The translations under genes and the position numbers were made by a program. The notes beneath the pieces were generated by a model that made no database searches, had not been told where the DNA came from, and was given only the letters and a program-made list of their open reading frames with translations. Below, in pieces: positions 35,746-52,840 of a stretch of DNA of 64,000 nucleotides (within the stretch, counting starts at the first letter, position 1; each line of letters opens with the position of its first letter). Source of the stretch: Escherichia coli (GTDB taxonomy: Bacteria; Pseudomonadota; Gammaproteobacteria; Enterobacterales; Enterobacteriaceae); NCBI RefSeq assembly GCF_041248615.1, contig NZ_CP158425.1. One strand, given 5' to 3'.

Positions 35746-38163
35746 TTATGTTTGAGGGAATTCTATAGCAAATGTGGCCGTGCCAGATTGACCACTTACA
35801 GCGGGAGTAACGGGATACGTGCGCTCTTCACCATTACCAAGATCCAGTGACAGCGATTTAGTTTCACCAGGCTGGACCGTAACTCCGGCAACCGTAACGC
35901 CGAACTGGGCATTTTTCTGAACAGTCAGGGTTCCGTTTAACTGTCCGGTAATGATAGAACCGTCCTGACGCCGCAACACACTGGTTCGGATGATGGCCAG
36001 CGGCGTGTTGTCCGTTGCTTTCAGTGCTACGGCTGTGGCCAGCGTCTTGAGATTATCCAGCATAATCAGATTCGCAGGCTGGTAGGTAAAATTAAGCGTT
36101 TTAGTGGTCCGGTTACCTGATTCGTCAATAGCCAGTGCCTCCAGATGATACATCTGTCCCGATTCGTCAGTGTTGGGGAAGATTCTGGGGTATTCCGGAA
36201 TAAAGACATCCTTGGATAACGGCGTGAATGCCAGGGTGACCTTTTCAGAGTTAGGTCCACCAGCGAGCTGAAGCGATGTCAGGGAAGCATCCCCAGAGGC
36301 ATCAGTAACGCTTATGCGAAGGTTCTCAAGCCCTTTAACCAGTTTTCCTTCTGCGTCTGCGCCATTAAAACTGAACGCGATAACCGGAAGCGTTGAGTCA
36401 ATTTTCAGCGGTGCATTAAGCGTTTTGGTTCCGGTGTTTCCAACAAGATCCGTGGCAGAGACGCTAACCACCGTATAATCCCCGTCCGGTAGACCAGCGT
36501 ATGAGAAGGTGGCGTTTTTGGTTTTATAATCGCTTTCACTGACGGTCACAGGCTTCAGCGTGAAAGGTTCCCCCCGGGCATTTTTAAGGGTGGCTTCGAA
36601 AACTTTGGTATCCCAGTAGCTGATGTTCCAGGCGTTGACGCGATCATTATCGGTGGCCGTCATAGTGATTGTCTTGGAGGCCTTGTTTACCTGAGCGACA
36701 TTAACCACCGGTGGGTTGTTATCCCAGATAACCGTAAAATTACCAGCAAGCGCATCGAATATGCTGTCACCATCTTTTCCCGAGTAAAGGTGCAGATACT
36801 CAAATCCTTTGTCACTGGTGTAGTTGAAGTTAACCGTCATCTCGCATGAACTTTGTCCGATAGGTATAGTGCAGAACCAGGCTGCATTTTTTACCGTTCT
36901 GAACTTTTGCACGTATGGTCGGGGTTCAGCGGTTACCTTTATGCGGCTAATGGTGGCGGTTTTAACGCTGATTGAGGCCTGAGTTAACCACTCACTGGTA
37001 TCACTCCGGTACATCTCTTTAGCCACTATCTTCGGGGCTATTTCCATCGCCGGGGCTGGAGTGAAGTTGAGGGAGTTATGATGAATTCGTCTTACTCCTC
37101 CTGCCAGAGTCTGGAATTCATGATAAGTATCCCCCACATTGGGATATATGTATTTGAAAGTATAAATATTATAAGTGCTATCGGACGTCTGGAAATTCGA
37201 GTCCGCCCAGCCATATTTGGAACCGTTAACAGCAGTAAAGTCACTTTTTTTCCTTAATACCCGTACGGAAATAGGGTTCTGGAAGACGGTCATGCCAGAC
37301 TGATAAGTGACCCATGATCCGGTAGTGGCGTCCTGCACCTGGATGATATCGTCAGGCTTAACCCGATCAATTACGCTTCGGCGGCTTAGTTCGATCCTGT
37401 TTCCCGCTTTGTCATAAAGGTAGATCCCCACTTTATATTCAGAGCGGTTTTCCGGTGCCAGGGCATTGCTGCTTGCGTCGGCGACTTGAACGGTTACGCT
37501 ACCTTCCACTGTATTAATTTCCGCTGGCTTTTTACGCTCCACTCCAGCGGCATCGGTTATGAAATATTCAGCATTAGCAAGCCCGGAACCTTTATCACTC
37601 AGTCCATTAAAGACCAGTGCCTGGACGCTGGCGTACTGCATACCGGCTGGTACTGAAGTGAAGATCGCTTCGCTGCCAAAGTTCCACCCGTTTCTCGTAT
37701 AACTTATGGTACCCGTTGCCGGAGGCGTTCGGTCAATTGCAAGCGGGTAATCCTGCCGGGAGACCTCCTTCCCTTGCAAGTCGGTAATCACCTCTCTGAG
37801 GGTGAAGCTATCTTCTCCCATCGCTGGTACGGTCAGAGTCTTGCCGTAATAATCAAAGCCTGTCGAAGATGTGGTACGGTCATCTACGGTAACCAGGCTG
37901 CTTTTCGTGCTCCAGATGAGGCTCCCGTCACTTTTCAGCAGACTGAGCGTAATATAACGGTCCAGACCGGAAATAACGGCAACGTCAAAGCTCGTTACCG
38001 GATTAATCCATACGGATGCAGGCGATACGGTCTTTTTAACGTTCAGGGTATCTTTAAAGCTGAATTCTGCGATTTCAGCGGAAGCTCCTGCGCTGAAACC
38101 TGCAAATGCAATAAGCAGGGCTAGTTTGATTTTCATGGGTTGTCTCCTGATCAGGTTCCCCAT
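35746..38163 (-). CDS. large secreted protein, paralog A of an about 800-aa family
   Basis: Sec signal peptide ending ASA; conserved LISGLDRY and C-terminal LTVQKNAQFG blocks shared with two other ORFs. Confidence 0.6.
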   Translation of the reverse strand: MGNLIRRQPMKIKLALLIAFAGFSAGASAEIAEFSFKDTLNVKKTVSPASVWINPVTSFDVAVISGLDRYITLSLLKSDGSLIWSTKSSLVTVDDRTTSSTGFDYYGKTLTVPAMGEDSFTLREVITDLQGKEVSRQDYPLAIDRTPPATGTISYTRNGWNFGSEAIFTSVPAGMQYASVQALVFNGLSDKGSGLANAEYFITDAAGVERKKPAEINTVEGSVTVQVADASSNALAPENRSEYKVGIYLYDKAGNRIELSRRSVIDRVKPDDIIQVQDATTGSWVTYQSGMTVFQNPISVRVLRKKSDFTAVNGSKYGWADSNFQTSDSTYNIYTFKYIYPNVGDTYHEFQTLAGGVRRIHHNSLNFTPAPAMEIAPKIVAKEMYRSDTSEWLTQASISVKTATISRIKVTAEPRPYVQKFRTVKNAAWFCTIPIGQSSCEMTVNFNYTSDKGFEYLHLYSGKDGDSIFDALAGNFTVIWDNNPPVVNVAQVNKASKTITMTATDNDRVNAWNISYWDTKVFEATLKNARGEPFTLKPVTVSESDYKTKNATFSYAGLPDGDYTVVSVSATDLVGNTGTKTLNAPLKIDSTLPVIAFSFNGADAEGKLVKGLENLRISVTDASGDASLTSLQLAGGPNSEKVTLAFTPLSKDVFIPEYPRIFPNTDESGQMYHLEALAIDESGNRTTKTLNFTYQPANLIMLDNLKTLATAVALKATDNTPLAIIRTSVLRRQDGSIITGQLNGTLTVQKNAQFGVTVAGVTVQPGETKSLSLDLGNGEERTYPVTPAVSGQSGTATFAIEFPQT

Positions 38164-38270
38164 GATACTTTTTCAGTGTTCGAGATCTTTTCGGGAAAAT
38201 AGCTAATTTTAATGTTTTTCTTTTCTGCCCGGCGGGACTTGTTTTGTTTACGTAAATGCAAAAATACAAG

Positions 38271-38285
38271 AAAAGTTACTTTTTG
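38271..38285. promoter_or_regulatory. palindromic motif AAAAGTTACTTTTTG (candidate operator)
   Basis: About 110 bp upstream of the secreted-protein gene start; followed by GATAGG as in the copy at 53061. Confidence 0.5.
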
Positions 38286-38539
38286 ATAGGGTTAAAATTA
38301 GGTTTTCCCAATTTCCAGAAGCAAGCGAAAGCAGAACTAGCTTAATAGCCATTAAAAACGCCATGCCTATTGATAAATAAAGCTCATTACATTTAATGAT
38401 TAGAGCATTTAAAACTGAATTAGCGAAAGAATTTCGGTTAGCTTTTTATTGCATGAGTGAAACAGTATTAATAATCCGGAGCCATCAGAACGTACTCTAA
38501 AGACTCCGGTATACAGATATCTTGCCAGTAAAAATGGCC

Positions 38540-38791
38540 TTACTCCTCATCATCCCCCAGCGCTTTTTTGATGGCGCGGCGGCGGGCTGCATCACCTACA
38601 CGATATCCGACTGAATATACGTCATTCAACCGGCGCAGAATAAGATTTATTTCCTCATCCTGAATGTAGGCAGGTAAACACAGAACTACGTCGCCATCTT
38701 CATCATAGACTCGAACAACTTCCTTCTGCCCATCTCGCTCGCGAATAATCTGGACATGCTGAACCCTGGTGTAATCTGGGATTACGCTCAT
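38540..38791 (-). CDS. hypothetical protein
   Basis: 83-aa ORF. Confidence 0.4.
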   Translation of the reverse strand: MSVIPDYTRVQHVQIIRERDGQKEVVRVYDEDGDVVLCLPAYIQDEEINLILRRLNDVYSVGYRVGDAARRRAIKKALGDDEE

Positions 38792-38998
38792 TTTAAATAT
38801 CTCTCTTTAATTGTTGTTACCAGTTAGCTATAAGCCGGTTTATTCAGGTACTCAGTGTTCTGCACAGCAATCGCCTGTTCGTGGATCATTAACACTGCTG
38901 GGCGGGCTTTAAGGCGCTTGCTGGTGAGAAAACGCTTCACTTCTTTAAGTTCGCTGCCAGCCGACAGCATATTGAAGACATGCTGTTTGAGACTGTTG

Positions 38999-39256
38999 TT
39001 ATTTTTGGCCACTTGTTTCTCCATCATCTTTGTACATGGTTGTGTCGGGCTGGCCTGCCAGATCACACACGTTATCCATATGCTTTTGGACCCAGTCTGT
39101 TAGACCCAGGCCTTCGGCCTTTGCCTGATTGACGTAACGCAGTTTCCGATCAGGGGTAACCCGCATCTGTAGTTGTGCCGTCGCTGGAACCGCCTCTTTC
39201 AGGGCGTTAAGGCCCCTCTGATCACGGGCCTGATTTGATGGTTTACCGTTTGGCAT
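38999..39256 (-). CDS. putative ribbon-helix-helix DNA-binding protein
   Basis: LQMRVTPDRKLRYVNQAKAEGLGLTDWV; paralog of 13145..13501. Confidence 0.4.
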   Translation of the reverse strand: MPNGKPSNQARDQRGLNALKEAVPATAQLQMRVTPDRKLRYVNQAKAEGLGLTDWVQKHMDNVCDLAGQPDTTMYKDDGETSGQK

Positions 39257-39680
39257 CTGAGGTATCGCTCTCCCGGCGAGCGGTGGACGACTCTAATTCT
39301 TTTGCGATTGCTTTATCTACGGCATCCAGCTGCATAGCAAACTTGATTTCAAGCGAACAGCGTAATGCCTTCAGGGCGCGTTCTTTGGTGCTGTATTGTG
39401 GTATGCCGTTCTGGCTACCATTCATGCCTCGCATGCGGCGGGAGGTTGCATCGACAACCTCTCCCTCTTCCCGTGTGCCGTGAACCGTAGTTCCGCTCCA
39501 TGTCGGATAAACAGTGCCAGTGGCGGTGTTGAAGCTCCAGCCGTTTTGGTATTCCCCCGAGACCTCTGGTACGGGCATATCGCGTTCAACGCTATAGTCA
39601 GACCAGCGTAAAGCGCGGTTTATTCTGGCCTGTGCCACCAGCTCATCATAGGCGGCTTGTTCTTTTTTATTCATCGCCAT
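39243..39680 (-). CDS. hypothetical protein
   Basis: 145-aa ORF. Confidence 0.4.
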   Translation of the reverse strand: MAMNKKEQAAYDELVAQARINRALRWSDYSVERDMPVPEVSGEYQNGWSFNTATGTVYPTWSGTTVHGTREEGEVVDATSRRMRGMNGSQNGIPQYSTKERALKALRCSLEIKFAMQLDAVDKAIAKELESSTARRESDTSDAKR

Positions 39681-39783
39681 TTAGGGCAATCTCCTTAAAG
39701 GGGAATTAGGTGTTATATCGGTACGTAAGTGCTTTTCAGGCCTAATCTCTGACAAGGCCTGATGTGCCAGACTGCCGTTGCAT

Positions 39784-40308
39784 TCACCGTTTTATGGCGG
39801 TTGACTGAGCCTCATTAAGAGCCGCAATTAGTTCAGGCGAAGTCGGCTCCAGATTTTTGGAAGCGTTCAGCAGCTCCTTAAGTGAAGAGATTTCCTTTGG
39901 CTCTACCTGGTTTGCTTCAGGAGCCGTTTTTTGAACTTCATCCAGAGTACGCTGTGCACCGTTATCCAGCACCAGCACACCCCCAGCACGAATTTCTGAA
40001 ATGGTGCGCACCGTATACATCATTTTATCCCAGACACGGCTACCAACCTCGATCCCGGAATCAGCTACTTTTTTTTCATTATGCTTTTGAAAAATTTCTT
40101 CTAACCATGTGGTGAAGCGCTTTCCAAAAGTATTGGCGGCTAAAGAAGTGCAGGAATAAACCTGTTCGACCTGTTTTGTTCCATTTTTATCAGTGAATGT
40201 AATGAGACCGATTCGTCCACTGTTAACAGTGTAAAAGCGAGGTTGAAAGCCAGCTTTGAGAAGGTTTTCAATAGCTGAAAAAAAATCTTTTTTGAGCATC
40301 GGTTTCAA
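39784..40308 (-). CDS. hypothetical protein
   Basis: 174-aa ORF. Confidence 0.45.
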   Translation of the reverse strand: MKPMLKKDFFSAIENLLKAGFQPRFYTVNSGRIGLITFTDKNGTKQVEQVYSCTSLAANTFGKRFTTWLEEIFQKHNEKKVADSGIEVGSRVWDKMMYTVRTISEIRAGGVLVLDNGAQRTLDEVQKTAPEANQVEPKEISSLKELLNASKNLEPTSPELIAALNEAQSTAIKR

Positions 40309-40628
40309 GATGGTTTTCCTTTTATGCCCGGTGCCGCCGGGACGGTGGCATTAAATATACGCCATGTAAGTAAATTAATTTTTACCCATTTGATTGTCAA
40401 TACAAACAAAAAATAAACCATGTTTATTATTTTACCAGCGATGCTATTTTAAAGTCCGTCTAAAATAAAAAACCAAAAAGTTAAATTTGAAGCCATCCTT
40501 CCTAAATTCATTTCTTGCGCATATTAGCCCCTGCTTTAAGTATATAATTTTTGAAAAAGTTGTCTGGAGGTTATTAGCTCGTGCATCTGGATTGTTAATA
40601 TAAAGCCAACACAGAAAAGGAAAACAAA

Positions 40629-41393
40629 ATGTATAAATTAGTATCTCCTCGTGAACTGACTGAGATTATTACCGGTTTACTGCTTAAACCTGAACTCCTT
40701 GGTGAGCTGGACTCACCAGAAAAGCATCGGATGTTTATGGCAGATTTAGGCCGGGTGGTGGCAGAACATTGTGGAGGTCTGGTAAACAGCGTCGTCTTGC
40801 CAGGAGCTGAAGTTACAGTGCCGGATGGGTTACCGCTTAACGGCCAGCCAGTACGTTATCTCGGAATCAAAGAGAGCATCCCTCACCTCCTTGTAGAGCC
40901 TGATGCTTCCTTACCTTCGCTCGCTAAAAACGTCTGGATGTATGCAGATCCTGAAGGCTGGAAAGAACATTTTGGAGCTGAGGAAGACTGCCTTACTCAT
41001 GAAATGATGCAGCTGTTCCGTAAAGGTATCCAGGCTCTTCAGAAGGAGCATGATACCCCTGAAATTAGCCTCACACTTCAGGACTGGCGCCTGGAGGAGG
41101 AAACACTGAGAGAAGAGGACAGTCAGGCCTATCAGGTCAGCGTTACCGGCCAACATAACATCCACTGTGAAGTTGTTAACAAGGAAGGTAACCCCTGTTT
41201 TGGTGTCATGTTCGAAATCGATCAGGGTGTGCCTGCCTTACACATCAACACCGGCGGGGATATGTTGCTCCACATTCATTGCGCCCATAACGGACTCGTT
41301 CTGACCCCTGATGCAAGCGGTCAGCGATTTGAGAAGGCTCCCGTTGACCGCTTCGCTTATAACAGCCCATCCCTGCTGTTGTCTGCCGACTAA
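40629..41393 (+). CDS. hypothetical protein
   Basis: 254-aa ORF, first gene of a plus-strand operon. Confidence 0.45.
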   Translation: MYKLVSPRELTEIITGLLLKPELLGELDSPEKHRMFMADLGRVVAEHCGGLVNSVVLPGAEVTVPDGLPLNGQPVRYLGIKESIPHLLVEPDASLPSLAKNVWMYADPEGWKEHFGAEEDCLTHEMMQLFRKGIQALQKEHDTPEISLTLQDWRLEEETLREEDSQAYQVSVTGQHNIHCEVVNKEGNPCFGVMFEIDQGVPALHINTGGDMLLHIHCAHNGLVLTPDASGQRFEKAPVDRFAYNSPSLLLSAD

Positions 41394-41410
41394 CCAAGGC
41401 CAAATCTGAA

Positions 41411-42235
41411 TTGTCCTGTTTAAGTAACCAACCCGCTGCCGCCAGGCGGGTAAATCCTCTTAATGGAGTTTTAATGCAAATCTCAACTGAAGTTCTGAAC
41501 GTCTTATCTCGCTGCCGTGCTGAAGGGAACTTTCTTTTCCTGGCCGACCAGCTCGACCGCAGCATTTATGTTAAGACAAACAAAGTGCTGGAAGCTGCCG
41601 GTGGCAAATGGAACCGAAAAGAGCAGGCACATATTTTTACGGCGGATGCAGCTGAGCGTATCGAGCAAATCATTCTGACAGGTTCGGTCGACATCCCACG
41701 TGATTTGTTCAATTTCTTCCCTACCCCTGAGAATTTAGTCACAGATATGGTTCTACGCGCTGAACCAGCTGCCGGGGAACGTGTTCTGGAGCCTGAGTTT
41801 GGTGATGGCCGCATTCTGAAAGCCTTAAAACTGGCGGCTCCGGATGCATTGATTACCGGGATCGAATTGAACGATGAGCGATTCCTTGCAGTGAAGAACG
41901 ATAGTGTCCTTAGCACAGGGGCCGAGCTGGTGCATACCGACTTTCTTGGGTACCAGCCCGATGAAACTTTTGATGTTATCGTTATGAATCCACCATTCCT
42001 TAAACGCTCTGACGTTAAACATGTCATGCATGCCATCGCAATGCTCGCTAAGCGAGGTCGCTTACAGGCCATTCTGTCAGCTGGGGTATTGTTCCGGGAA
42101 GACACACTGACAAAAGCGCTCAGGGAGCGAGTCAAACAACTTGGCGGACAAATTTCGCCTCTTCCGGATGATACATTTAGGGAGTCCGGAACAAAGGTCA
42201 AAACAGCCCGCCTTGAAATTGATCTTCGCCGCTAA
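41411..42235 (+). CDS. N6-adenine-type DNA methyltransferase (NPPF motif)
   Basis: LEPEFGDGRIL (motif I), ITGIEL, VIVMNPPF (motif IV); paralogous to the domain in 54842..55840. Confidence 0.55.
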   Translation: MSCLSNQPAAARRVNPLNGVLMQISTEVLNVLSRCRAEGNFLFLADQLDRSIYVKTNKVLEAAGGKWNRKEQAHIFTADAAERIEQIILTGSVDIPRDLFNFFPTPENLVTDMVLRAEPAAGERVLEPEFGDGRILKALKLAAPDALITGIELNDERFLAVKNDSVLSTGAELVHTDFLGYQPDETFDVIVMNPPFLKRSDVKHVMHAIAMLAKRGRLQAILSAGVLFREDTLTKALRERVKQLGGQISPLPDDTFRESGTKVKTARLEIDLRR

Positions 42236-42328
42236 CTGACAAGCAACCGGAAAGAAATCTTAATACGAGTAGCCGGTTAAAGTTACCTGACCGGCTTAAC
42301 TGACTAAATCAATAAAGAGTGAACAGAA

Positions 42329-42592
42329 ATGACGCATACTGCCGTTTCTCAGGCTAATAGTGCTTTGCAGCTACCCACGCTGGAGCATGTCTACGCACTT
42401 CTGAAAGCAAATTGTAAACCTGACCGCTTTGACGGGCGTGACGGACCCGTGTGGGGCCAGGAATACTCGTGGAATCTGGCAAAAGATCGCTTACAGGATC
42501 TGGAGAAATACGGTAAGGCATATGTCTCCCGTCATGAAGACCGTATGGGGGAAGGATTTAGTTTTGGTCCTGACCTGTTAATTATTCGCTAA
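42329..42592 (+). CDS. hypothetical protein
   Basis: 87-aa ORF. Confidence 0.4.
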   Translation: MTHTAVSQANSALQLPTLEHVYALLKANCKPDRFDGRDGPVWGQEYSWNLAKDRLQDLEKYGKAYVSRHEDRMGEGFSFGPDLLIIR

Positions 42593-42612
42593 CGCTCTTA
42601 AGGCCTGATGAT

Positions 42613-43688: not shown

Positions 43689-46109
43689 ATGAAACATCTC
43701 GCTTTTATTACTGCTGTAGCCGGACTCGGTATGTCTGTTCAGGCCCCAGCTCAGATATATGAATCGGCCTTTAAGGACACGAACGGTATTGAGATCCACG
43801 CCCCGTCTTCTCGTCTTATGCTTAATCCGGCATCACCGGTAACTTTGACACTTATTTCAGGTCTTGATCGTTTCGTTAATGTCAAAGTCACGAAAGACAC
43901 TGGAACTGTCATTCTTAATACTACGACTACACGGACGGGTGTATCAGACCGACTAACAGCTGCTGACGGTAGTGAGTTCTACGGCAAAAAAGTAACTTTG
44001 CCTGCTTTGGGTGAAGGCAAATTTGTCGTTCAGATAAACGTGTTAGATCTCAATCAGAAGCCTGTAGCGACCTATAACTATAACTGGCTAATTGATGTCA
44101 CCCCTCCAGCGGCAAATGCTCTTACCGCTAATACTGGTTCTGGCTCTACCGCTGGTGACGTGTGGAAGCTTGGATTAGAGGCAACGGGGCAGTATGACTT
44201 CACCTCTTCGGGCGTAAGTGATGCAAATGGTATTGATAAGGGCCTAATATATATTTACAGGCAGGACGGTAGCCTCTACAGCACTACACAGATGCAGTAT
44301 GACGTATCCGGCCAAAAGATGTACCACACTTACTCTAAGAATTCAGTTAAGGGAACCGGAATACCAGACAGCAACCTGGATGAAGACTTTACTGCAAAAG
44401 TTGTTATCTTCGATAACGCAGGTAATAGCCGAACGCTGCCAACTCAAAAATTTCGCTACGACAACACGCTGGGTGAGATGACACTGTGGGCCGTTCATGA
44501 TCCAAATACGTCTTCCAGCGTCGTACCCGGGGTTTCTAATTATCCGGCTTACAAAGCCGGTATGGTCGTTAACGAAAACCCTATTCGATTAGTCTACCGG
44601 ATCCCAAAATCTAACTACCGTGCTTATTCAGAAGGTGGGCTTCAGTTCATCAATCAATATTCCGCCCCCAAAGAGATAGCTGTAGACAGCACTTATGCTT
44701 ATGTTGAAATGACTCTTCCCTATGGCTCAATTAATGGGGATATGGCTCGTATGGCGAACTTTGGCCAGTGGGGAGGGTATTATCCGTCATACAGCCTCGT
44801 TCTAAACCCATCTGCAAACCAAACGCCTGCATTTGCGGGTACCTGGGTAGATTTCCTCGATGATAAGGGGAACTGGGTTAAGTGGAAGGATTTTGAGAGT
44901 GTGGCTTCATCACGACTGCCAATTAAAATTTCCCGACTTCGTTTTAACGTTGAAGCCCGGCCCTTTGCACAGGAGATCGGCGGTAAGGCGACCTGCACCA
45001 TTCCGGCAGGAAAAACCTCGTGTGAAGCGCCTGAGACGTTTGATATGGCCTTGGGTACCCAGGGCTACAATAGAATCCTTTACTTCGTTCGCAGCATCAG
45101 CAATCCCATTTTGCGGTCTGAGCAATGGATTATGACACGCTGGAACAATAAACAACTGCCGGTAATAAACTCGATATCATATGACGAGACTAACAAGCAG
45201 CTGGATGTACTGGCGTCACTTGAAGGCGATGGTAACTGGTTCGACTCGGTCTCATTGAGGGAATTTTATCTTTCCGATAAGAACACCGGTACCCGGATGT
45301 CACCAACAGGCGTAATCAAATCTCGTATCTCAGGTAACTACACGATTGCTTATGATTTATCCCGTCAGTCTGAAGGAAAATACAACGTTGAGGTCAACAT
45401 CAGGGACTTCTTCCAGAACCAGACCAATAAAACTTTCGGAGAAATTGCTCTGGATAACACTCCTCCGACAGTGGCCATAACATTCGACGGAAAGCCGGTA
45501 AAAGACGATACGGTAGTGTACGGCCTGGAGAACCTCAGGATCGCTCTGGCAGATAATCTGACAACCCCGAGGATAACCCGTCTTCAGCTCGTAGGTGGCC
45601 CCACAGCTGATAACGTTGAGCTTACGTGGTCACCGGCAGGCAAAGATACATACATGCCTGAGTATCCGAGGCTGTTCCCAAATTTCGAACCATCTGAAAA
45701 TTATTCAATTAGCGTAACAGTTGCCGATAGTCAGTCGAATACCAAAACCTATACTCAGAAGTTCAGTTATCTACCGAATAACCTTGTGCAGTTACATAAT
45801 CTACGCACATTGTCGGTCAGTTCACCTCTCAAAACGACAGATGGCGTACCACTTGCGTACCTGTCCACTAACGTTCTGCGTAAGACAAATGGAGAAATTG
45901 CTAAAGGGGTCCAGAACGCAACGCTGACTGTGCGGAAGGATGCAGCCTTCGGTATTAAATTTAATGGGGCACAGGCGGCTCCAGGCGAGTCAGTTGAGGT
46001 GCAAATAGATATGGGCCAGGGGGATAATCTTCTGTTACCCGTTTATCCTTCCGAAAATGGGAAAGTTGGCACCTCAGAATTCATGATTCAGATCGACGAG
46101 TTGAAGTAA
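43689..46109 (+). CDS. large secreted protein, paralog B of the about 800-aa family
   Basis: Signal peptide ending AQA; same conserved blocks as paralogs A and C. Confidence 0.6.
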   Translation: MKHLAFITAVAGLGMSVQAPAQIYESAFKDTNGIEIHAPSSRLMLNPASPVTLTLISGLDRFVNVKVTKDTGTVILNTTTTRTGVSDRLTAADGSEFYGKKVTLPALGEGKFVVQINVLDLNQKPVATYNYNWLIDVTPPAANALTANTGSGSTAGDVWKLGLEATGQYDFTSSGVSDANGIDKGLIYIYRQDGSLYSTTQMQYDVSGQKMYHTYSKNSVKGTGIPDSNLDEDFTAKVVIFDNAGNSRTLPTQKFRYDNTLGEMTLWAVHDPNTSSSVVPGVSNYPAYKAGMVVNENPIRLVYRIPKSNYRAYSEGGLQFINQYSAPKEIAVDSTYAYVEMTLPYGSINGDMARMANFGQWGGYYPSYSLVLNPSANQTPAFAGTWVDFLDDKGNWVKWKDFESVASSRLPIKISRLRFNVEARPFAQEIGGKATCTIPAGKTSCEAPETFDMALGTQGYNRILYFVRSISNPILRSEQWIMTRWNNKQLPVINSISYDETNKQLDVLASLEGDGNWFDSVSLREFYLSDKNTGTRMSPTGVIKSRISGNYTIAYDLSRQSEGKYNVEVNIRDFFQNQTNKTFGEIALDNTPPTVAITFDGKPVKDDTVVYGLENLRIALADNLTTPRITRLQLVGGPTADNVELTWSPAGKDTYMPEYPRLFPNFEPSENYSISVTVADSQSNTKTYTQKFSYLPNNLVQLHNLRTLSVSSPLKTTDGVPLAYLSTNVLRKTNGEIAKGVQNATLTVRKDAAFGIKFNGAQAAPGESVEVQIDMGQGDNLLLPVYPSENGKVGTSEFMIQIDELK

Positions 46110-46269
46110 CTACCCGGAGCCGACAGTAAAACTGACGGCTTCAATTTTACTGCCCTCCTCGACTCCGATCAGCCAGTACGTCTTCAGAGATTCGCAAGGA
46201 AGAACCGAAAGAAAAGTTACTTTAATCGTACGTTTCCAGCGATGCTTTCAAAAGACAATGCATACTCGT

Positions 46270-48115
46270 TGATTACGACAATGGGAGTGAGTGTCGAACC
46301 CCTTGAGTAAGGATACTTGGTAAATATACAGCCCCGGGGATTCTCTTCCTTCAACCGGGGATGACAACGGGAGTGAGTCCGGCAACTCACACCTGTTGTC
46401 ACTTCTCTGACATATCGTCATACGAGCTTACTCAAGCGCATCCACAAAGATGGGATCGTTTTGAATCTAAACTGGTACTGGTTAGCCAGTCACTTGCATC
46501 TACTCCCCCGTCGATATTTAAGTGACAATTGTAGTGATCTGCAATACTGGTGTCTCAGAAACACTGACGACGGTAGAGACTCAATACCCTAACCCCTGAC
46601 AACAGAAGTGAGCTTAGAGGTGTTACGCTGCTGTCACCTAATGCTTGGGAATTGCCTGACTCACAACCATTGTCATCCGGAGCTACTGATTAACGTTGAA
46701 CCGCTGGACTTTAATGACAGTGGTAGTGATGGATAGGCTCATTTCCATTGTCGTCATTTTATCGGACAAGCCTCTTCGTCCTACAGGTTTAAGCTGACAA
46801 TGGTAGTGATTGGATGATCTCACTACTGTTGTCACTCAGTTCTTTGAGCGGACCCTTCCCTCGGTTGGTCGGCATTAACAACGGTAGTGACTCGATTGGC
46901 TCACTGCCATTGTCATCGTGTAAATGACGTACCTTATCAGCTCAGCTGAAAGCAATGACAACGGTAGTGACTCTAATTGCTCACTGCCATTGTCGTCGTG
47001 TCTATTGAGAGCCTTATCAGTGCACCTGAAAAGCAATGACAACGGTAGTGATTCTAATGGCTCACTACCGTTGTCACCGTGTGTATTGAGAGGATGGTCC
47101 ACCTAACTGGACGTATATGACAATGGTAGTGACTTTAATAGCTCACTACCATTGTCGGTGTGTGAATTGAGAGGATGAGCAGCTCAGCTGTACGTCCATG
47201 ACAATGGTAATGACTTAATGAGCTCACTACCGTTGTCACCCTGTTAATTAAGAGGCTCATCTGCTCTTCTGGAAGGCTATGACAACGGAAGTGACTTGCT
47301 GGGCTCACTGCCATTGTCGCCGTATGAATTGAGAGGATCATCCGCTCTTCTGGATGGCAATGACAACGGTAATGACTTAATAGGCTCACTACCATTGTCA
47401 CCCTGTGAATTGAGAGGATGATCTGCTTAACCAGACGGCCATGACAACGGTAGTGACTTTCTGGGCTCAATACCGTTGTCACCCTGTGAGTTAAGAGGTT
47501 GACCCGCTCTACTGGACGGCCATGACAACGGTAGTCACTTTCTGGGCTCACTACCGTTGTCACCCTGTGAGTTAAGAGGTTGACCCGCTCTACTGGACGG
47601 CCATGACAACGGTAGTCACTTTCTGGGCTCACTACCGTTGTCGCCATATAGAATGAGAGGAGCATCAGCTCAACTGAACGGCAATGACTACAGTAATGAG
47701 CTGGATGAAGCATAACCATTGACATCTGGCCCAACCGGAAGCCGTATTCGCCAATCCAATCGAGATTCACAATGGCCGTGACTCGCCGCATTAAGTTCCG
47801 GTGTCCTCCCAAAGCTGAACGCACACTCGGAGGACAATGACAATGCCAGTAAGGTACACATCATTACCATTGTCACTATAGCTACCAGAGAAGCCGGGAT
47901 TTGAATGTCGATGGTAGTGAGTGGGTCAACTCACTGCCATTGTCACCCCGTTACGATATTTTCCGTTGGATGTACTGGCCAATGAAGTAAAGCGTAGAAA
48001 CCGGGTGTTAACAGGTGACTCAGGAGAAAGCGTTGAATTTCGCAATCTCGATCTACATAGGGTGGTAGAGAACAATGACAACGGTAATGACTTTTGACTC
48101 ATTACCGTTGACGTG
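46270..48115. repeat. array of about 20 palindromic iteron pairs with about 81-bp periodicity (incA-like copy-control region)
   Basis: Units ATGACAACGGTAGTGAC-8nt-CTCACTACCGTTGTCAC recur every 80-81 bp (47118, 47198, 47279, 47360, 47441, 47522, 47603 and others). Confidence 0.7.
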
Positions 48116-48187
48116 AAAGAGCGGGCTGGGACTAACGAAAATCGAAGAAGTAATTTAGCACCCGGAGCCTAAACCGCCGGGTTAACT

Positions 48188-49276
48188 TTAGCTGGCGTTG
48201 CTGTTCTTTTTCTGGCTTCGAAGACTACGAATATAGCGCAGTTCTTCAGCGGTTAAATCATGGACGGTAAGAACATCATCGCCGTCAATCGGGTCAGCTG
48301 GTGGGCATAACTCACCTTCTAAAACAGAAGACCCTGAGTTCTCTTCTTCATCTTCAACCACTTCTAAAGGAGGCTGAGTATTGTTCAAATTCAGATCGGG
48401 ATCCCGCTTATGAATCTGGAAGTATACTTTTCCGTCTTTCTTAATTTCGGTGTACTTGAGGTATCCTATCGATGCCAACTCTTCAAGAGCCTTTCTCACG
48501 GTAGCATTCTGACTATTTGCTCGTGTTTTGAGGTTCAGACGATTTTTCAGCCGAGTAAGGGATATCGGTATAGGATTTGGCGGTAATGACTCTATGAACG
48601 TATAGAGAGCCTGGGCGCTTTCCTTCTTGGCCAACTCCTTAATTGCCTTCAGCTGCATCAAAACCTTATGATCGTATTGATAGAGCTCGAAAATCTTAGG
48701 ATCAACCTGAAGGACAACCTGATCTGATTCCGGGTCTAACAGGGCAGACTGTACCAGATGCGTTGTATAGACTTTGGACGAGTTATTACTGGTGAACGAC
48801 AAGGTAACGGATGCTAACCTGCGTAAGGAGGCGTCTATACGTTTTCTGGACGCTGTAGATGAGCGATAATTTTCAGGCGTACATAGCTTGAGGAATTCAG
48901 TGAATTTTAAGCTTATCGTGTCATTGTTAATCGGATGATTGGCATAGGTTCGAATGATGCCCATCCACGTCTTAAAATCTACTGACATATTAAGACGCTC
49001 ACCGACAATTGAAATATTGGTGAACCCCTCGCTCTCCATTAAAGAGAGCGTCTGTAACTCTTTCGTTGCGTCAAAGCCAACCGTTTTATATTCCCGATTT
49101 TGACGCCCCACACTCTTTGGTGATGGGACGAACAGCCCGAGCCGCATCAAAGCAATAGACTGCACCGTACGGTTGCTGTTAGGACGCAAAATGATGTCTT
49201 TACCTGATTCTTTCTCTCTAACAGAGAAAGCCCTGGTGACCAGGTCCTGCTGCTCAGTATCTTTCTCTTTAGTCAT
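48188..49276 (-). CDS. repA: replication initiator RepA, P1/RepFIB family
   Basis: TVQSIALMRLGLFVP, DFKTWMGII, LYQYDHKVL, ALYTFIESLP and IGYLKY match P1 RepA blocks recalled from memory; iterons on both sides. Confidence 0.85.
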   Translation of the reverse strand: MTKEKDTEQQDLVTRAFSVREKESGKDIILRPNSNRTVQSIALMRLGLFVPSPKSVGRQNREYKTVGFDATKELQTLSLMESEGFTNISIVGERLNMSVDFKTWMGIIRTYANHPINNDTISLKFTEFLKLCTPENYRSSTASRKRIDASLRRLASVTLSFTSNNSSKVYTTHLVQSALLDPESDQVVLQVDPKIFELYQYDHKVLMQLKAIKELAKKESAQALYTFIESLPPNPIPISLTRLKNRLNLKTRANSQNATVRKALEELASIGYLKYTEIKKDGKVYFQIHKRDPDLNLNNTQPPLEVVEDEEENSGSSVLEGELCPPADPIDGDDVLTVHDLTAEELRYIRSLRSQKKNSNAS

Positions 49277-49495
49277 AATTAGTTATCACTGAATGTGTAA
49301 ACAGATTGGTGAATAGTAAGCCCCAGCGAACTCTATGTCACTGGATGGATCATTGTGATGATCCATATCTGTGCATAAGTTCTACCTAAAAAAACGACTC
49401 CACTCATTAAAACTTGGCAAAAACTCTTTGCATACAATGACCTGCAACTCTTATCAACAACGGATCAGATCAAGTTAAAAAGATCTAATGAAAAG

Positions 49496-50020
49496 TCACT
49501 ACTATTGTCGCTCTGATCACTACTGATGTCAAAAAACTCATTACCAACGTTATAATAATCACTACTAATGTCAAAATAATCACTACTGTTGTCACTGATC
49601 ACGTCTCAGGCCTTGTGCCGTCTGGCCTGGAGGCAGCGGGGATCTCTTTTGATCTATCAGGAACACTAAGGTACTAATTATTGGAACTACCTTGTGGAAA
49701 ATGGGGATAAATAAATGCTTAGTTCTTATACAGGTCTCAACTTGCCTCCCTGATAAAAACTGTCGTCAAAGCTAAATCACAGCCACAGGCATTTTCGGTG
49801 GATAAATTTTTGAGAAATAGAAGCATACATGCAGACTCGTGTCGCAAGTAATTGAAAGTAATGATTTATTTAAATAATGCGAGTCACCTTACCTCACAGT
49901 GGAAGTTTAAGTCTAACCTCACTACCATTGTCACTTAAAATCATTACCAACGTCGAAATAGTCTCTACCATTGTCTTTTAAGTCACTCCCGTTGTCACTT
50001 ATGTCGCTACTGTTGTCAGT
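49496..50020. repeat. origin iterons: two sets of five direct repeats (TCACTACNNTTGTC) at 21-22-bp spacing
   Basis: Set 1 starts at 49496, 49517, 49538, 49559, 49580; set 2 at about 49918 to 50004. Confidence 0.7.
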
Positions 50021-50245
50021 GACAATGCTCCAGCCCAGTAACCATGCGGCCTACAGCGTACCGGGATCTTCTTTGTACTCTCTGGCACCTTTGGGATCAT
50101 TTATTGGATCTACATGAGGGATAAAATCTTTTGACGATTTCGTAGTGCAGTTATACCAGCGACTTAGCAAGACAAAAGCTGCAATTTAGTGACGAGTTAC
50201 TAGTCTGCCCAACAAGAGCAATGCAGAGAAGATATGTGGTGAAAT

Positions 50246-50279
50246 GACCATGGTAGTGAGTCTAATCACTACCATGGTC
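50246..50279. repeat. perfect palindrome built from two iteron half-sites
   Basis: GACCATGGTAGTGA-GTCTAA-TCACTACCATGGTC. Confidence 0.6.
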
Positions 50280-50383
50280 CGCAGTAAGCGTTACTTACGC
50301 AATGAACGTCGGACTGATTTGCAACAACATGGGCTACGGCGCATCAGAAGGCGGCCGTTGTGCTTCAGCAAAACAGCCCTGCT

Positions 50384-52840
50384 TTATTTTAATTCTTCAA
50401 TGTTAATCATGAACTCAGATCTGCCAGTAAGGCCGGATACAGCAGGGAAAATAGGAAAGCTACGGCTGTCCCCGAGCCCCAAATCCAGTTGAAGCTCTTT
50501 GCTTTCACCTGGCATCGCAGAAACGCCATTTACAGTCACGCCGAATGCAGCGTCCTTACGGACAGTAAGCACTGCGTCCTGAAGCCCTGTAGCGATTGAA
50601 CCATCCTTTTTACGCAGCTGGCTGGCATACAGAACAGCCAGAGCAGTATTGTCAGATGTTTTGAGAGAAGCATTGACAGCTAAGGTTTTCAGATTCTCTA
50701 GCCTGACGAGATTGTTTGGAAGGTAGTTAAATTCGACTGAGCTTTCTTTAACGTTGTTCATCTCATCTTTGGCCTGAACTGTGAGAGTGTATGTTTCGCC
50801 TTCATTAAGAGACGGAAAGATCTTGGGATAATTAGGTGCATACAGGTTGTTTCCCAGATTCACCCAAGACAATTCCACCGCATCAGAAACAGGGCCACCG
50901 CGAAGAGTCATACGGCTTAAGGATGGTTTAGTTAGAGCATCGGTGAGCTGTATACGGACGTTCTCCAGCCCATATACTGTTACGTTTTTGCTGATCGGTT
51001 TTCCTTCGTAGCTAATACTTACAGATGGTGCTGTATTATCAACGACAACTGTTTGATAAGGGAGGTTACCGGTATTGTTGAATGTATCTTGGGCATTAAT
51101 CACCACGTTATAACTGCCTTCTGGTACCTCTTTCATGTTGAACTCATACGTGTAGTTCCCAGACGCCATATTTCTACCTGTTTGTTTGCCGGTTACGCTT
51201 ATTTCTGCGTTGTTACGGTTTTTATCTGACAACCAAACTCGATTTACATAAACATGGTCGAAATATGAACCATCTCCAGGTTGATTCACGTAAACCTGGA
51301 GAATGTTGGTGGTTTCATTGTAATCAAATCCAGTGACGGAGGGACCCAGTGTATGCCAGGCTATATTCTCCCATATAGGGGCAAAGAAGGTTGCTTCGGT
51401 GGTTGACCTTACTTCATAGCCACTATGAAGATAACCGGTAGTGCCATTTATAATATCCTGGGGCAAAGAGACGGTACAGGTTGTTGAGCCAGCTGGAATA
51501 CTGCATGTTGCTCCGCCAGTGATTTTTTGATCATATGGCCTGGCCTGTACATTGAATCGGATATTAGTAAGTTTTATAGGCATATCAGATGCCTTGAACA
51601 GGTTCCAGTTTACGCTGTTGAACCATGTTCCATCAGCCTTTTGTCGTTCTATGGGTGAACTTCCCCAAGCCGGACTCTTTACAGAGGCAGGATCCCAGTT
51701 GAGCCAGCTGGCATACTGACCAAGATCTCCTCCAGACCATTGATATGTATTCACAGGTCTATAGTAGTTTCCATCTAAGGCACCCTGTGGCAGCTTAACT
51801 TCCACGTAGACATAGGTGGCATCTTCGGAAAGGACCTGTACTCCGCCATAGTTATTGGTAATGCTCATGCCACCATTTCGATATGGCTTCCAGTTAGTTC
51901 TTGGGATACGTATAACCAACTTGTAGGGGTTTTCCAGCACTGTAAGGCCTCGTTTAAACGGGACGTATCCCGAAGAAATGCCGGGTACAACACTGGTGCT
52001 TACACGTGAGTCATGAACTGCAAATGGCGTAAATTCTCCCATTTGATCGTCATATAAAAACCGCTGGGGAGGAATGTTAAGCGTATTTCCTGCCAGGTCC
52101 GTAACGATGAAATTGAAGGTGAATTCTTCATCAAGATCACTTGAGGGCATGCCAGCCTGGGTGTTCATATCTTTAATCCACGGATAGAACGCACGTTTAT
52201 TGGCTGTGTCATAACTCAGGTTATTGTCGGAGACCACAGAACCATTACTTCGTTTAATGACAAGACGGATCTTGTCAATTCCACTAGCATCCTCAATACC
52301 GTCTGCAAATATAGAAAACTGGCCACTACCGCCTCGGCCCAACTCCCAAAGTGGCCCAGAAAGTACCATGTCGTAACCTGCGTTTTGACTCGGATAAATA
52401 CTCTTATAGCGTGGAGGAGTTGTATCAACGATGAAATGATAAGTAGATGTGCTCACTACAGTCTGGCGAATATCCAGAGTTTCATTGACTACAGTAAAGG
52501 TCCCTTCTCCGAGCGCCGGTAGAACCATATCCTTTCCATAGTATTCTGTTCCATCGGCAGCAACGATACGATCTGCAACGCTCGTTTTGGTCGAGACGGA
52601 GGAATACATAACCTTTTTATCGCTGTCTCGTGTGACCGTCACTCGCTCGTACCGATCAAGACCCGATATCAAGTTCAGAGTCAAAACACCAGCGGGATTA
52701 AGATATGTTTGTGTTGCAGGTTTGATATTCCGAACAGCCTTATTGGTATCTGTAAATGAGTAGCTAAATACCTGAGCATGTGCCGAAGATACAGTAGCAA
52801 GGGCAGTTGCAACCATGCAGCCAATTAGAGTTTTACGCAT
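50384..52840 (-). CDS. large secreted protein, paralog C of the about 800-aa family
   Basis: Signal peptide ending AHA; C-terminal LTVRKDAAFG block. Confidence 0.6.
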   Translation of the reverse strand: MRKTLIGCMVATALATVSSAHAQVFSYSFTDTNKAVRNIKPATQTYLNPAGVLTLNLISGLDRYERVTVTRDSDKKVMYSSVSTKTSVADRIVAADGTEYYGKDMVLPALGEGTFTVVNETLDIRQTVVSTSTYHFIVDTTPPRYKSIYPSQNAGYDMVLSGPLWELGRGGSGQFSIFADGIEDASGIDKIRLVIKRSNGSVVSDNNLSYDTANKRAFYPWIKDMNTQAGMPSSDLDEEFTFNFIVTDLAGNTLNIPPQRFLYDDQMGEFTPFAVHDSRVSTSVVPGISSGYVPFKRGLTVLENPYKLVIRIPRTNWKPYRNGGMSITNNYGGVQVLSEDATYVYVEVKLPQGALDGNYYRPVNTYQWSGGDLGQYASWLNWDPASVKSPAWGSSPIERQKADGTWFNSVNWNLFKASDMPIKLTNIRFNVQARPYDQKITGGATCSIPAGSTTCTVSLPQDIINGTTGYLHSGYEVRSTTEATFFAPIWENIAWHTLGPSVTGFDYNETTNILQVYVNQPGDGSYFDHVYVNRVWLSDKNRNNAEISVTGKQTGRNMASGNYTYEFNMKEVPEGSYNVVINAQDTFNNTGNLPYQTVVVDNTAPSVSISYEGKPISKNVTVYGLENVRIQLTDALTKPSLSRMTLRGGPVSDAVELSWVNLGNNLYAPNYPKIFPSLNEGETYTLTVQAKDEMNNVKESSVEFNYLPNNLVRLENLKTLAVNASLKTSDNTALAVLYASQLRKKDGSIATGLQDAVLTVRKDAAFGVTVNGVSAMPGESKELQLDLGLGDSRSFPIFPAVSGLTGRSEFMINIEELK

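What the first reader, a model, noticed from the sequence alone, without database searches (positions are those of the whole stretch)
35746..52840. Three divergent paralogs of an about 800-aa secreted protein around the replicon
ORFs 35746..38163 (minus), 43689..46109 (plus) and 50384..52840 (minus) share a signal peptide, an N-terminal LISGLDR(Y/F) block, internal TPPA and DNAGN blocks and a C-terminal LTV(Q/R)K(N/D)A(Q/A)FG block, but are otherwise strongly diverged. Each is flanked by the palindromic motif, and two upstream copies share the extension TTTTGATAG. There is no autotransporter-type C-terminus. Three diversified copies of a large exported protein on one replicon suggest a surface or periplasmic function under diversifying selection, such as adhesion, exclusion or a receptor role.
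Basis: partly seen in the sequence, partly recalled or inferred. Interest (0 to 1): 0.6.

Follow-up and report, generated by a model that had tools for sequence, protein, structure and literature searches.

The report
Three RSP2-family conjugation proteins, IncHI2 plasmid
The three large exported proteins around the replication origin of this IncHI2 resistance plasmid are old, well-conserved relatives of RSP2, a secreted immunoglobulin-like protein already shown in the sister plasmid R27 to bind the mating pilus and flagella and boost plasmid transfer, so they are new members of a known family, not a new system.

Summary
The window is IncHI2 plasmid backbone, 100% identical to p14408_M1. It carries three intact paralogs: A at 35746..38136(-), B at 43689..46109(+) and C at 50384..52840(-). 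They flank repHI2 and its iterons.

All three have a Sec-type signal peptide followed by DUF4165, Big_3_2 and Big_3_3 domains. All three align end to end with R27 RSP2 (32-39% identity, E 1e-106 to 1e-175). RSP2 is a secreted protein that depends on the conjugative type IV secretion system, binds the pilus and flagella, and raises conjugation about 100-fold.

An AlphaFold model of C (pLDDT 91.6) is a string of Ig/FN3-like sandwiches with no barrel.

IncHI plasmids carry four paralog lineages: A, B, C and D (= RSP2). IncHI2 keeps A, B and C. R27 keeps only D intact, with B and C broken. p8025 has all four loci.

Diversifying selection is not supported. dN/dS between IncHI2 lineages is 0-0.10, and B and C are more conserved between IncHI1 and IncHI2 than their neighbours are.

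The flanking-palindrome claim is only partly right. A and C have AAAAGTWACTTTT upstream; B does not.

The published statement that IncHI2 lacks rsp2 is true for orthology. It misses these three family members.

The parts
35746..38136 (-). Paralog A, 796 aa (WP_000694550). Signal peptide, then DUF4165, Big_3_2 and Big_3_3. It is the sister lineage of R27 RSP2. The longest ORF would start at 38163.
   Evidence: ORF and translation. RefSeq annotation. Pfam. 38.7% identity to RSP2 over the full length, E 1e-175. 61% identity to p8025 gene 1. A+RSP2 clade with 100% bootstrap. AGGAG ribosome-binding site before 38136.
43689..46109 (+). Paralog B, 806 aa (WP_000681217). Same architecture. It is the ortholog of the R27 pseudogene fragments at 55629-56478 and of the p8025 gene at 190229-192649.
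   Evidence: 86% and 74% identity to the R27 fragments. 75% identity to p8025_3. Identical protein in the second IncHI2 lineage, with 9 synonymous and 0 non-synonymous changes.
50384..52840 (-). Paralog C, 818 aa (WP_001572417). Same architecture. It is the ortholog of the IS30-interrupted R27 gene WP_010892306.
   Evidence: 82% identity to the R27 gene over 705 aa and 84% over the piece beyond IS30. 79% identity to p8025_2. AlphaFold model with pLDDT 91.6 and pTM 0.77.
38077..38136 (-). Predicted Sec signal peptide of A (MKIKLALLIAFAGFSAGASA|E).
   Evidence: Sequence. The cleavage-site Ala is conserved across the family. This is inferred, not run through a dedicated predictor.
43689..43751 (+). 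Predicted Sec signal peptide of B (MKHLAFITAVAGLGMSVQAPA|Q).
   Evidence: Sequence. Inferred.
52775..52840 (-). Predicted Sec signal peptide of C (MRKTLIGCMVATALATVSSAHA|Q).
   Evidence: Sequence. In the AlphaFold model, helix 2-14 is followed by low confidence at 15-22, and the first strand starts at residue 23.
38271..38283 (.). Exact copy of the 13-bp palindrome AAAAGTTACTTTT, 135 bp upstream of the start of A.
52996..53008 (.). Exact palindrome AAAAGTAACTTTT, 156 bp upstream of the start of C, in the divergent intergenic region shared with gene 53213..53839.
   Evidence: A copy lies at the equivalent place upstream of the C orthologs in R27 and p8025.
53061..53073 (.). Second exact palindrome, 221 bp upstream of C.
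46212..46224 (.). One-mismatch palindrome 103 bp downstream of the stop of B. It is not a promoter element for B.
   Evidence: A copy lies close downstream of the B orthologs' stop in p8025 (exact, L008 29212, about 100 bp) and in R27 (one mismatch, L002 5582, about 35 bp).
48188..49276 (-). repHI2 replication initiator. This is context: the replicon that B and C flank.
   Evidence: Annotation.
46871..47699 (.). About 10 tandem copies of an 81-bp unit between B and repHI2, an iteron-like array. The mechanical ORF 47135..47824 lies inside it, and RefSeq does not annotate it as a gene.
   Evidence: No annotated gene there. No family hit.

Best explanation
A, B and C are three intact members of the plasmid-borne DUF4165/Big_3_2/Big_3_3 family. 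The characterised members of this family are RSP2 (R27 R0055) and the IncA/C protein ALG87338.1.

The most likely mechanism has four steps:
1. Each protein is made with a cleavable Sec signal peptide and enters the periplasm. This step is inferred from sequence; RSP2 was found in the periplasm.
2. Each folds there into an elongated chain of about 7-8 Ig/FN3-like beta-sandwiches, with one conserved Cys-x8-Cys pair. The fold is shown by modelling. A disulfide between the two cysteines, possibly made by the plasmid's HtdT/DsbC-type isomerase, is inferred.
3. Each reaches the cell exterior in a way that needs the plasmid's F-type (TrhC/TrhH/TrhA) conjugative type IV apparatus and, in part, the large partner protein RSP. 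RSP is encoded elsewhere on the same plasmid. This dependence was shown for RSP2 in R27 and is inferred here.
4. Outside the cell, each binds the H-pilus and flagella, lowering motility and stabilising donor-recipient contact. This raises transfer frequency, above all in liquid at 25-30 C. Again this was shown for RSP2 and is inferred here.

The three genes are not fast-evolving variants. They are ancient paralogs, each under purifying selection. IncHI plasmids hold four such lineages (A, B, C and D=RSP2), and different plasmid groups retain different subsets.

The conserved N-terminal domain and C-terminal third probably carry the shared interactions, with the apparatus, RSP or the pilus. The divergent middle (residues about 150-577) probably carries lineage-specific ones.
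For: Identity of the replicon: 100% match to IncHI2 plasmids typed MOBH/MPF_F. The same plasmid carries rsp, the trh genes and htdT.

Family membership:
- Pfam finds DUF4165, Big_3_2 and Big_3_3 in all three proteins.
- All three align over their full length with RSP2: 38%, 32% and 35% identity, E 1e-175, 5e-107 and 2e-122.
- hhalign matches the family profile to the first 800 aa of the IncC 1828-aa protein at E 4e-127.

Function of homologs (PMC8730810):
- RSP2 is found in the periplasm and the secretome.
- Its export needs TrhC, TrhH and TrhA, and partly RSP.
- Immunogold labelling places it on flagella and pili.
- Deleting rsp2 lowers conjugation about 2 logs in liquid at 25 C.
- The IncA/C homolog is needed for conjugation at 25 C.

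Genomic linkage to the transfer apparatus:
- In IncC and pCAR1 the long form sits inside the tra operon: traV/traA - Big - dsbC - traC in IncC, and directly after traV in pCAR1.
- In an Aeromonas MOBH plasmid, four tandem family genes are followed directly by a full-length RSP homolog (E 3e-132).
- Of 3058 plasmid records with a family member, 2741 are typed conjugative.

Selection and age:
- dN/dS is 0.05, 0 and 0.10 for A, B and C.
- Orthology: C to R27 82%, B to R27 fragments 74-86%, A to p8025 61%.
- Tree: A+RSP2 clade 100% bootstrap, B+C clade 97%.
- Conserved ends and variable middle; two conserved cysteines.
Against: No experiment exists for A, B or C themselves. Expression, export and pilus binding are all extrapolated from proteins that are only 32-39% identical.

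None of the three is the true ortholog of rsp2. p8025 carries an A-like gene and a separate rsp2 remnant.

The consensus scan found no strong sigma-70 promoter upstream of any of the three.

The combination of a Sec signal peptide with export that depends on the conjugative type IV system is unusual, and the route across the outer membrane is unknown.

The IncA/C homolog did not affect motility, so flagellar binding may not be general.

With three intact paralogs, single-gene phenotypes could be masked. The genes are also not in the tra operons of IncHI plasmids.
Confidence: 0.68

Rival explanations
1. The paralogs are alternative or complementary mating adhesins. They share ends that dock on the pilus or RSP, but their divergent central domains recognise different recipient-surface or environmental ligands. 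This would broaden the range of hosts or conditions in which the plasmid can form stable mating pairs.
For: The N-terminal domain (about 44% identity) and the C-terminal third (37-55%) are conserved, while the middle is strongly diverged (17-29%). Having 3-4 copies per plasmid recurs in IncHI2, p8025, Klebsiella and Aeromonas plasmids, with independent expansions. Each lineage is kept under purifying selection, which argues against simple redundancy.
Against: No ligand is known. R27 conjugates with only the D lineage intact. No lectin-like or other specialised binding domain was detected; every domain is a generic Ig/FN3 sandwich. IncHI plasmids already encode TrhN for mating-pair stabilisation.
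Confidence: 0.15
2. They are adhesins or biofilm factors for host tissue or abiotic surfaces. On this view they benefit the carrying bacterium independently of conjugation, like SiiE-type BIg adhesins.
Against: They lack the hallmarks of SiiE/LapA-type adhesins: giant size, tens of repeats and a type I secretion signal. They have Sec signal peptides instead. They have no anchor domain. The family is tied to MOBH/F-type transfer genes, even sitting inside tra operons. Knock-outs of homologs give conjugation phenotypes.
Confidence: 0.08
3. They act in exclusion or protection, for example by masking the H-pilus against pilus-specific phages or by blocking redundant mating between plasmid-bearing cells.
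For: RSP2 decorates the pilus. Nothing found here speaks specifically for it.
Against: Loss of rsp2, or of the IncA/C homolog, lowers donor transfer, which is not the phenotype of an exclusion factor. The proteins have no membrane anchor or lipoprotein signal. The LIGC in the signal peptide of C comes after only 7 residues and lies inside the hydrophobic core, so it is not a plausible lipobox.
Confidence: 0.05
4. Two of the three are redundant duplicates on their way to decay, as in R27, and carry no function of their own.
For: In R27 the B and C orthologs are inactivated by deletion and by IS30. The p8025 rsp2 copy is a remnant.
Against: All three are intact in most of the 1257 IncHI2-type records matched. 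dN/dS is 0-0.10. B and C are better conserved between IncHI1 and IncHI2 than neighbouring genes. An intact allele of the R27 C ortholog, 99% identical, stands for a cluster of 459 sequences.
Confidence: 0.03

Closest known systems
RSP2 (R0055, WP_000666930) of IncHI1 plasmid R27 (Huttener et al. 2022, mSphere, PMC8730810)
   Same: Same length class (794 aa against 796-818 aa). Same signal peptide plus DUF4165, Big_3_2/Big_1 and Big_3_3 architecture. Alignable end to end. Encoded next to an IncHI replicon between the Tra1 and Tra2 regions. A and RSP2 form one clade with 100% bootstrap support.
   Different: Identity is only 32-39%. None of the three is its ortholog: p8025 carries an A-like gene and a separate rsp2 remnant. 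IncHI2 has three intact family members, whereas R27 has one intact and two broken. A, B and C have no experimental data.
IncA/C (IncC) Big protein ALG87338.1 of pKAZ3 / WP_000606835 (1828-1843 aa), and the pCAR1 DUF4165 protein (1982 aa)
   Same: Their first 800 residues match the whole A/B/C/RSP2 profile (hhalign E 4e-127). They are secreted and needed for conjugation at 25 C (PMC8730810). They are carried on MOBH/MPF_F plasmids.
   Different: They have an extra C-terminal extension of about 1000 aa. They are single-copy and sit inside the tra operon (traV/traA - Big - dsbC - traC in IncC; directly after traV in pCAR1). The IncA/C protein has no effect on motility.
RSP (R0009, 1432 aa) of IncHI plasmids (Huttener et al. 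2019, PLoS Genet, PMC6764697)
   Same: A secreted Big protein that depends on the conjugative type IV system and is required for IncHI conjugation. It interacts with RSP2. It shares the central VEPR-x-Y-x-Q / Cys-x8-Cys module and the Big_3_3 region with the family (hhalign probability 94.7%, E 6e-8).
   Different: It has no DUF4165 or Big_3_2 N-terminus and a different, much longer C-terminal part. It is encoded in Tra2 and is a partner of the family, not a member of it.
SiiE-type giant BIg adhesins of Salmonella
   Different: SiiE is about 5500 aa with 53 repeats. It is secreted by a type I system with a C-terminal signal and binds host cells. The resemblance is fold-level only (15% identity).
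Mating-pair stabilisation adhesins TraN (F-like plasmids) and PilV (IncI shufflon)
   Same: Functional analogy only: surface proteins that improve donor-recipient contact in liquid matings, with variants of different specificity.
   Different: They are unrelated in sequence and fold. TraN is an outer-membrane protein and PilV a minor pilin. IncHI plasmids have their own TrhN.

Membership tests
Plasmid DUF4165/Big family (RSP2-like secreted conjugation-accessory proteins) | Domain order DUF4165 - Big_3_2 - ... - Big_3_3 in a protein of about 800 aa, or in an N-terminal module of that size | tested here: met
   Pfam finds all three families in all three proteins, with best E-values of 5.7e-17, 1.9e-38 and 1.7e-65.
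Plasmid DUF4165/Big family (RSP2-like secreted conjugation-accessory proteins) | Full-length sequence homology to RSP2 / ALG87338.1 | tested here: met
   BLASTP against RSP2 gives E 1e-175, 5e-107 and 2e-122 over about 800 residues. hhalign of the profile against the IncC protein gives E 4e-127.
Plasmid DUF4165/Big family (RSP2-like secreted conjugation-accessory proteins) | N-terminal export signal | tested here: met
   A basic N-region, a hydrophobic core and AxA before a conserved Gln or Glu. The site is conserved in the family. The model shows a detached N-terminal helix. No dedicated signal-peptide predictor was available.
Plasmid DUF4165/Big family (RSP2-like secreted conjugation-accessory proteins) | Encoded on a MOBH / F-type (MPF_F) conjugative element that also encodes RSP or tra genes | tested here: met
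   Plasmid typing is MOBH, MPF_F. rsp, trhB/V/C/F/U/N and htdT are on the same plasmid.
Plasmid DUF4165/Big family (RSP2-like secreted conjugation-accessory proteins) | Type IV system-dependent release, binding to the conjugative pilus and flagella, and a positive effect on conjugation | not testable with these tools
   Known only for RSP2 and, in part, the IncA/C homolog (PMC8730810).
rsp2 orthologs (lineage D) | Orthology to R27 R0055, i.e. high identity comparable to the other IncHI1/IncHI2 ortholog pairs | tested here: not met
   A-RSP2 identity is only 38.7%, against 82% and 74-86% for the C and B ortholog pairs. p8025 has an A-like gene (61% to A) and, at another locus, a remnant 92% identical to RSP2. 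This agrees with the published statement that IncHI2 lacks rsp2.
Autotransporter / inverse autotransporter adhesins (intimin, invasin) | Outer-membrane beta-barrel translocator domain | tested here: not met
   No barrel family in Pfam. The AlphaFold model consists only of beta-sandwich domains.
Type I-secreted giant BIg/RTX adhesins (SiiE, LapA) | No Sec signal peptide, a C-terminal type I secretion signal, and tens of tandem BIg repeats | tested here: not met
   N-terminal signal peptides are present. The proteins are about 800 aa with 7-8 non-identical domains. The similarity to SiiE is at fold level only.

The most novel reading that the evidence does not exclude
The short DUF4165/Big proteins are subunits of a multi-protein, pilus-associated extracellular structure built together with RSP. 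The different paralog lineages (A/D-type and B/C-type) would occupy distinct positions or supply distinct recipient or surface specificities. Plasmids of the MOBH/F-type group would then carry a previously unrecognised modular 'mating adhesin kit', exported by an unusual Sec-plus-conjugative-type-IV two-step route. The set of paralogs a plasmid retains would shape its host range and its low-temperature transfer in liquid.
Probability: 0.2. Interest if true: 0.65.

Novelty: new member of a known kind. Interest (0 to 1): 0.36.

Why it matters
IncHI2 plasmids are major carriers of mcr-1 and of multidrug resistance. RSP is already being explored as a vaccine and nanobody target against bacteria that carry IncHI plasmids (PMC11268884).

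The literature states that IncHI2 plasmids lack rsp2. This analysis shows that they carry three intact, exported-looking members of the same family. A is at least 99% identical in 1028 plasmid records, and all three differ by at most five residues between the two IncHI2 lineages compared. That has three consequences:
- It makes them candidate extra surface antigens.
- It predicts redundancy that could mask single-gene knock-out phenotypes in IncHI2.
- It explains why deleting rsp2 has a strong effect in R27, where the other two copies are broken.

The analysis also ties the family firmly to MOBH/F-type transfer systems across Enterobacterales, Aeromonas and Pseudomonas.

This is an incremental refinement of a known system, not a new mechanism.

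Tried and rejected
- NCBIfam gave no meaningful family. The only hit was a sub-threshold PorU match of 18.9 bits against a cutoff of 420.
- A PDB sequence search gave only a weak SiiE hit, E 0.003.
- Whole-model Foldseek hits (alpha-2-macroglobulin, complement, S-layer proteins, mastigonemes) have TM-scores of 0.1-0.2. They reflect generic chains of Ig domains, not a specific relationship.
- The 794-aa ORF at 23924..26308 was checked as a possible fourth paralog and rejected. It is a PAPS-reductase-family protein.
- The extension TTTTGATAG was tested and is not significant.
- A search for the palindrome upstream of B with up to 3 mismatches found only one 3-mismatch site.
- A literature search for the palindrome found nothing relevant. 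Searches for DUF4165, and for IncHI2 with RSP2 or with 'Ig-like domain', turned up only the R27 group's papers and works that say nothing of A, B or C.
- The LIGC in the signal peptide of C was considered as a lipobox and rejected. The Cys is at position 8, inside the hydrophobic core.
- dN/dS between IncHI2 and IncHI1-type orthologs could not be used because synonymous sites are saturated, with pS 0.79-0.83.
- Context look-ups for distant representatives gave little. P0064 sits on a 9-kb contig next to a Tus-like gene, and P0102 is not on record.
- The consensus promoter scan found no convincing sigma-70 promoter for A, B or C.
Full report
**What the window is.** The 18.5-kb stretch around the finding is 100% identical to many IncHI2 plasmids (for example E. 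coli p14408_M1, NZ_LT599829), typed MOBH/MPF_F conjugative. In that record the three ORFs are annotated 'Ig-like domain-containing protein'. The gene between B and C is repHI2. The window runs from the end of traD (Tra1) to just before the second replicon and Tra2. An 81-bp tandem array of about 10 copies (46871-47699) and 21-bp repeats (49516-49594, 49960-50018) surround repHI2. 'Around the replicon' is therefore correct.

**Check of the observation.** The ORFs are present as described. The paralogy is far beyond chance: B-C 41% identity, A-B and A-C 28-29% over about 800 residues, with E-values of 1e-82 or lower.

- Each protein begins with a basic N-region, a hydrophobic core and AxA before a conserved Gln or Glu.
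- That Ala-Gln junction is nearly invariant in a 10-member family alignment.
- A's real start is probably 38136 (AGGAG 8 nt upstream; also the RefSeq start), not 38163.

**The palindrome claim.** AAAAGTWACTTTT is a real, highly over-represented element: 14 sites with at most 1 mismatch against 0.2 expected. It lies upstream of A (one site) and C (two sites). B has none upstream, only one-mismatch copies inside its coding sequence and 103 bp past its stop. The 'TTTTGATAG extension' is not significant.

**What the proteins are.** Pfam finds DUF4165 (about residues 27-145), Big_3_2 (about 147-266) and Big_3_3 (about 549-705) in all three. This is the architecture published for RSP2, the 794-aa product of R27 ORF R0055, and for the IncA/C protein ALG87338.1 (PMC8730810). 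I fetched R27 and compared directly. A, B and C align with RSP2 from signal peptide to C-terminus at 38%, 32% and 35% identity (E 1e-175, 5e-107, 2e-122).

- A profile of the family matches the first 800 residues of the 1828-aa IncC protein at E 4e-127.
- It matches RSP itself only over a central module (probability 94.7%, E 6e-8).
- An exhaustive profile search finds 310 cluster representatives at E of 1e-30 or lower, in two size classes: about 800 aa and about 1820-1870 aa.

**Evolutionary structure.** R27 also has three such genes around RepHI1A. One is interrupted by IS30, one is reduced to fragments, and RSP2 is intact.

- BLASTP shows C is the ortholog of the IS30-cut gene (82%).
- B is the ortholog of the fragments (74-86%).
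- A matches RSP2 at only 38.7%.

Plasmid p8025 (an IncHI1B-type plasmid) resolves this. It has four loci: an A-like gene (61% to A), a C-like gene (79%), a B-like gene (75%) and a deleted remnant 92% identical to RSP2. IncHI plasmids therefore hold four lineages. A neighbour-joining tree groups A with RSP2 (100% bootstrap) and B with C (97%). IncHI2 retains A, B and C. R27 retains only D (RSP2). An intact allele of R27's C ortholog, 99% identical and 818 aa, stands for a cluster of 459 sequences, so the IS30 disruption is peculiar to R27's lineage. The published statement that IncHI2 lacks rsp2 is therefore right for orthology. It overlooks three family members.

**Selection.** Between the two IncHI2 lineages (window against pFJMB80374_1), A has 31 synonymous and 5 non-synonymous differences (dN/dS 0.05). 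B has 9 and 0. C has 9 and 3 (dN/dS 0.10). Several neighbouring genes show dN/dS of 0.15-0.29 and lower protein identity. A is at least 99% identical in 1028 plasmid records. Between IncHI2 and IncHI1-type plasmids, B and C (75-86%) are better conserved than the flanking backbone genes (58-72%). This is purifying, not diversifying, selection. Among paralogs, the N-terminal domain and the C-terminal third are conserved (about 44% and 37-55%) and the middle is divergent (17-29%).

**Link to the transfer apparatus.**

- In IncC the long-form gene lies in the tra operon between traV/traA and dsbC/traC. In pCAR1 (IncP-7) it follows traV directly, with IS elements downstream.
- In Aeromonas pSS332-218k, four tandem short-form genes downstream of traD-DUF4400 are followed immediately by a full-length RSP homolog (27% identity over 1400 residues, E 3e-132).
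- Klebsiella pKp6001 has three tandem copies plus a fourth.
- All of these plasmids are MOBH. Of 3058 plasmid records with a family member, 2741 are typed conjugative, and the mean is about 2.5 loci per record.
- The IncHI2 plasmid itself encodes RSP, the Trh apparatus and the disulfide isomerase HtdT.

**Most likely mechanism.** By homology with RSP2, the steps are:

1. Sec export to the periplasm (inferred from sequence).
2. Folding into an elongated Ig-like chain (modelled).
3. Release to the surface or medium that needs the conjugative type IV apparatus (TrhC, TrhH, TrhA) and partly RSP (shown for RSP2).
4. Binding to the H-pilus and flagella, reducing motility and stabilising mating contacts, with the largest effect in liquid at 25 C (shown for RSP2; the conjugation effect was also shown for the IncA/C homolog).

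For A, B and C every functional step is inferred. Because three intact paralogs coexist in IncHI2, partial redundancy is expected. The strong delta-rsp2 phenotype in R27 fits the fact that R27's other two copies are broken.

**Rivals.**

- *Distinct ligand specificities for the paralogs.* This is compatible with the conserved-ends and variable-middle pattern and with retention of each lineage. It has no direct support.
- *Host or abiotic adhesion.* This rests only on fold similarity to SiiE.
- *Exclusion or phage masking.* This conflicts with the donor-side phenotypes of the homologs.
- *Decaying duplicates.* This is contradicted by the selection data.

**Verdict.** The finding is real. Its interpretation as a new diversifying surface-protein system is not supported. 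These are new, uncharacterised members of a known, recently described family of conjugation-accessory Big proteins. The useful additions are the four-lineage picture, the correction to 'IncHI2 lacks rsp2', the evidence of strong conservation, and the conserved linkage to RSP and tra genes.

Noticed in passing
window 485, 5387, 10436, 10562, 23806, 28855, 33067, 38271, 43988, 46212, 52996, 53061, 59338, 61202 (13-bp sites): The palindrome AAAAGTWACTTTT has 8 exact and 6 one-mismatch sites against 0.2 expected. Ten of the 14 lie 80-220 bp upstream of minus-strand gene starts. Copies sit at equivalent positions in R27 and p8025 and occur in Klebsiella pKp6001. It looks like the operator of an IncHI-wide regulon. 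No publication on it was found.
   Followed up: partly
window 58095..59258 (-): This 387-aa 'hypothetical/DNA-binding' protein has a ParB-type HTH (PF17762, E 1.7e-4) and a one-mismatch copy of the palindrome 80 bp upstream of its own start. It is a candidate KorB-like global regulator for the palindrome. Pure hypothesis.
   Followed up: partly
window 46871..47699; 49516..49594; 49960..50018: About 10 copies of an 81-bp tandem repeat lie between B and repHI2, and 21-bp repeats lie upstream of repHI2 (iteron-like). The mechanical ORF 47135..47824 (229 aa) lies inside the array, has no family hit and is not annotated in RefSeq, so it is probably not a gene.
   Followed up: partly
window 54842..57847: A DUF4942 gene is split by an IS3-family element (transposase 55968..57181). 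Both halves (54842..55840 and 57221..57847) match the single intact gene of R27, p8025 and the other IncHI2 lineage. A second IS3-family copy lies at 18179..19392.
   Followed up: partly
window 38136 vs 38163: The longest ORF of paralog A starts at 38163. The ATG at 38136 has a good Shine-Dalgarno sequence (AGGAG), matches the RefSeq call and matches the N-terminus of the p8025 ortholog.
   Followed up: yes
L003 (R27) 8926-12605 and 15630-16479; L008 (p8025) 31972-32837: Family members are inactivated in other plasmids. R27's C ortholog is cut by IS30, with its last 112 codons surviving beyond the IS. R27's B ortholog is reduced to two fragments. The rsp2 copy of p8025 carries an internal deletion.
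   Followed up: yes
L013 (Aeromonas caviae pSS332-218k) 7110-20906: Four tandem short DUF4165/Big genes are followed directly by a 1399-aa full-length RSP homolog (E 3e-132), downstream of traD-DUF4400. This is the most compact arrangement of the RSP/RSP2-type gene set that I saw.
   Followed up: partly
window 23924..26308 (-): A 794-aa ORF of the same size class as the paralogs is unrelated. It is a phosphoadenosine-phosphosulfate-reductase-family protein conserved in R27 (80% identity over the part fetched).
   Followed up: yes
window 34495..34791 (-): The RelE/ParE-family toxin gene next to A is far more conserved between IncHI2 and R27 (90% aa) than its neighbours (63-65%). No antitoxin is annotated in RefSeq. 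The adjacent 156-aa ORF 34841..35311 gave only a sub-threshold DnaJ zinc-finger-region hit.
   Followed up: no
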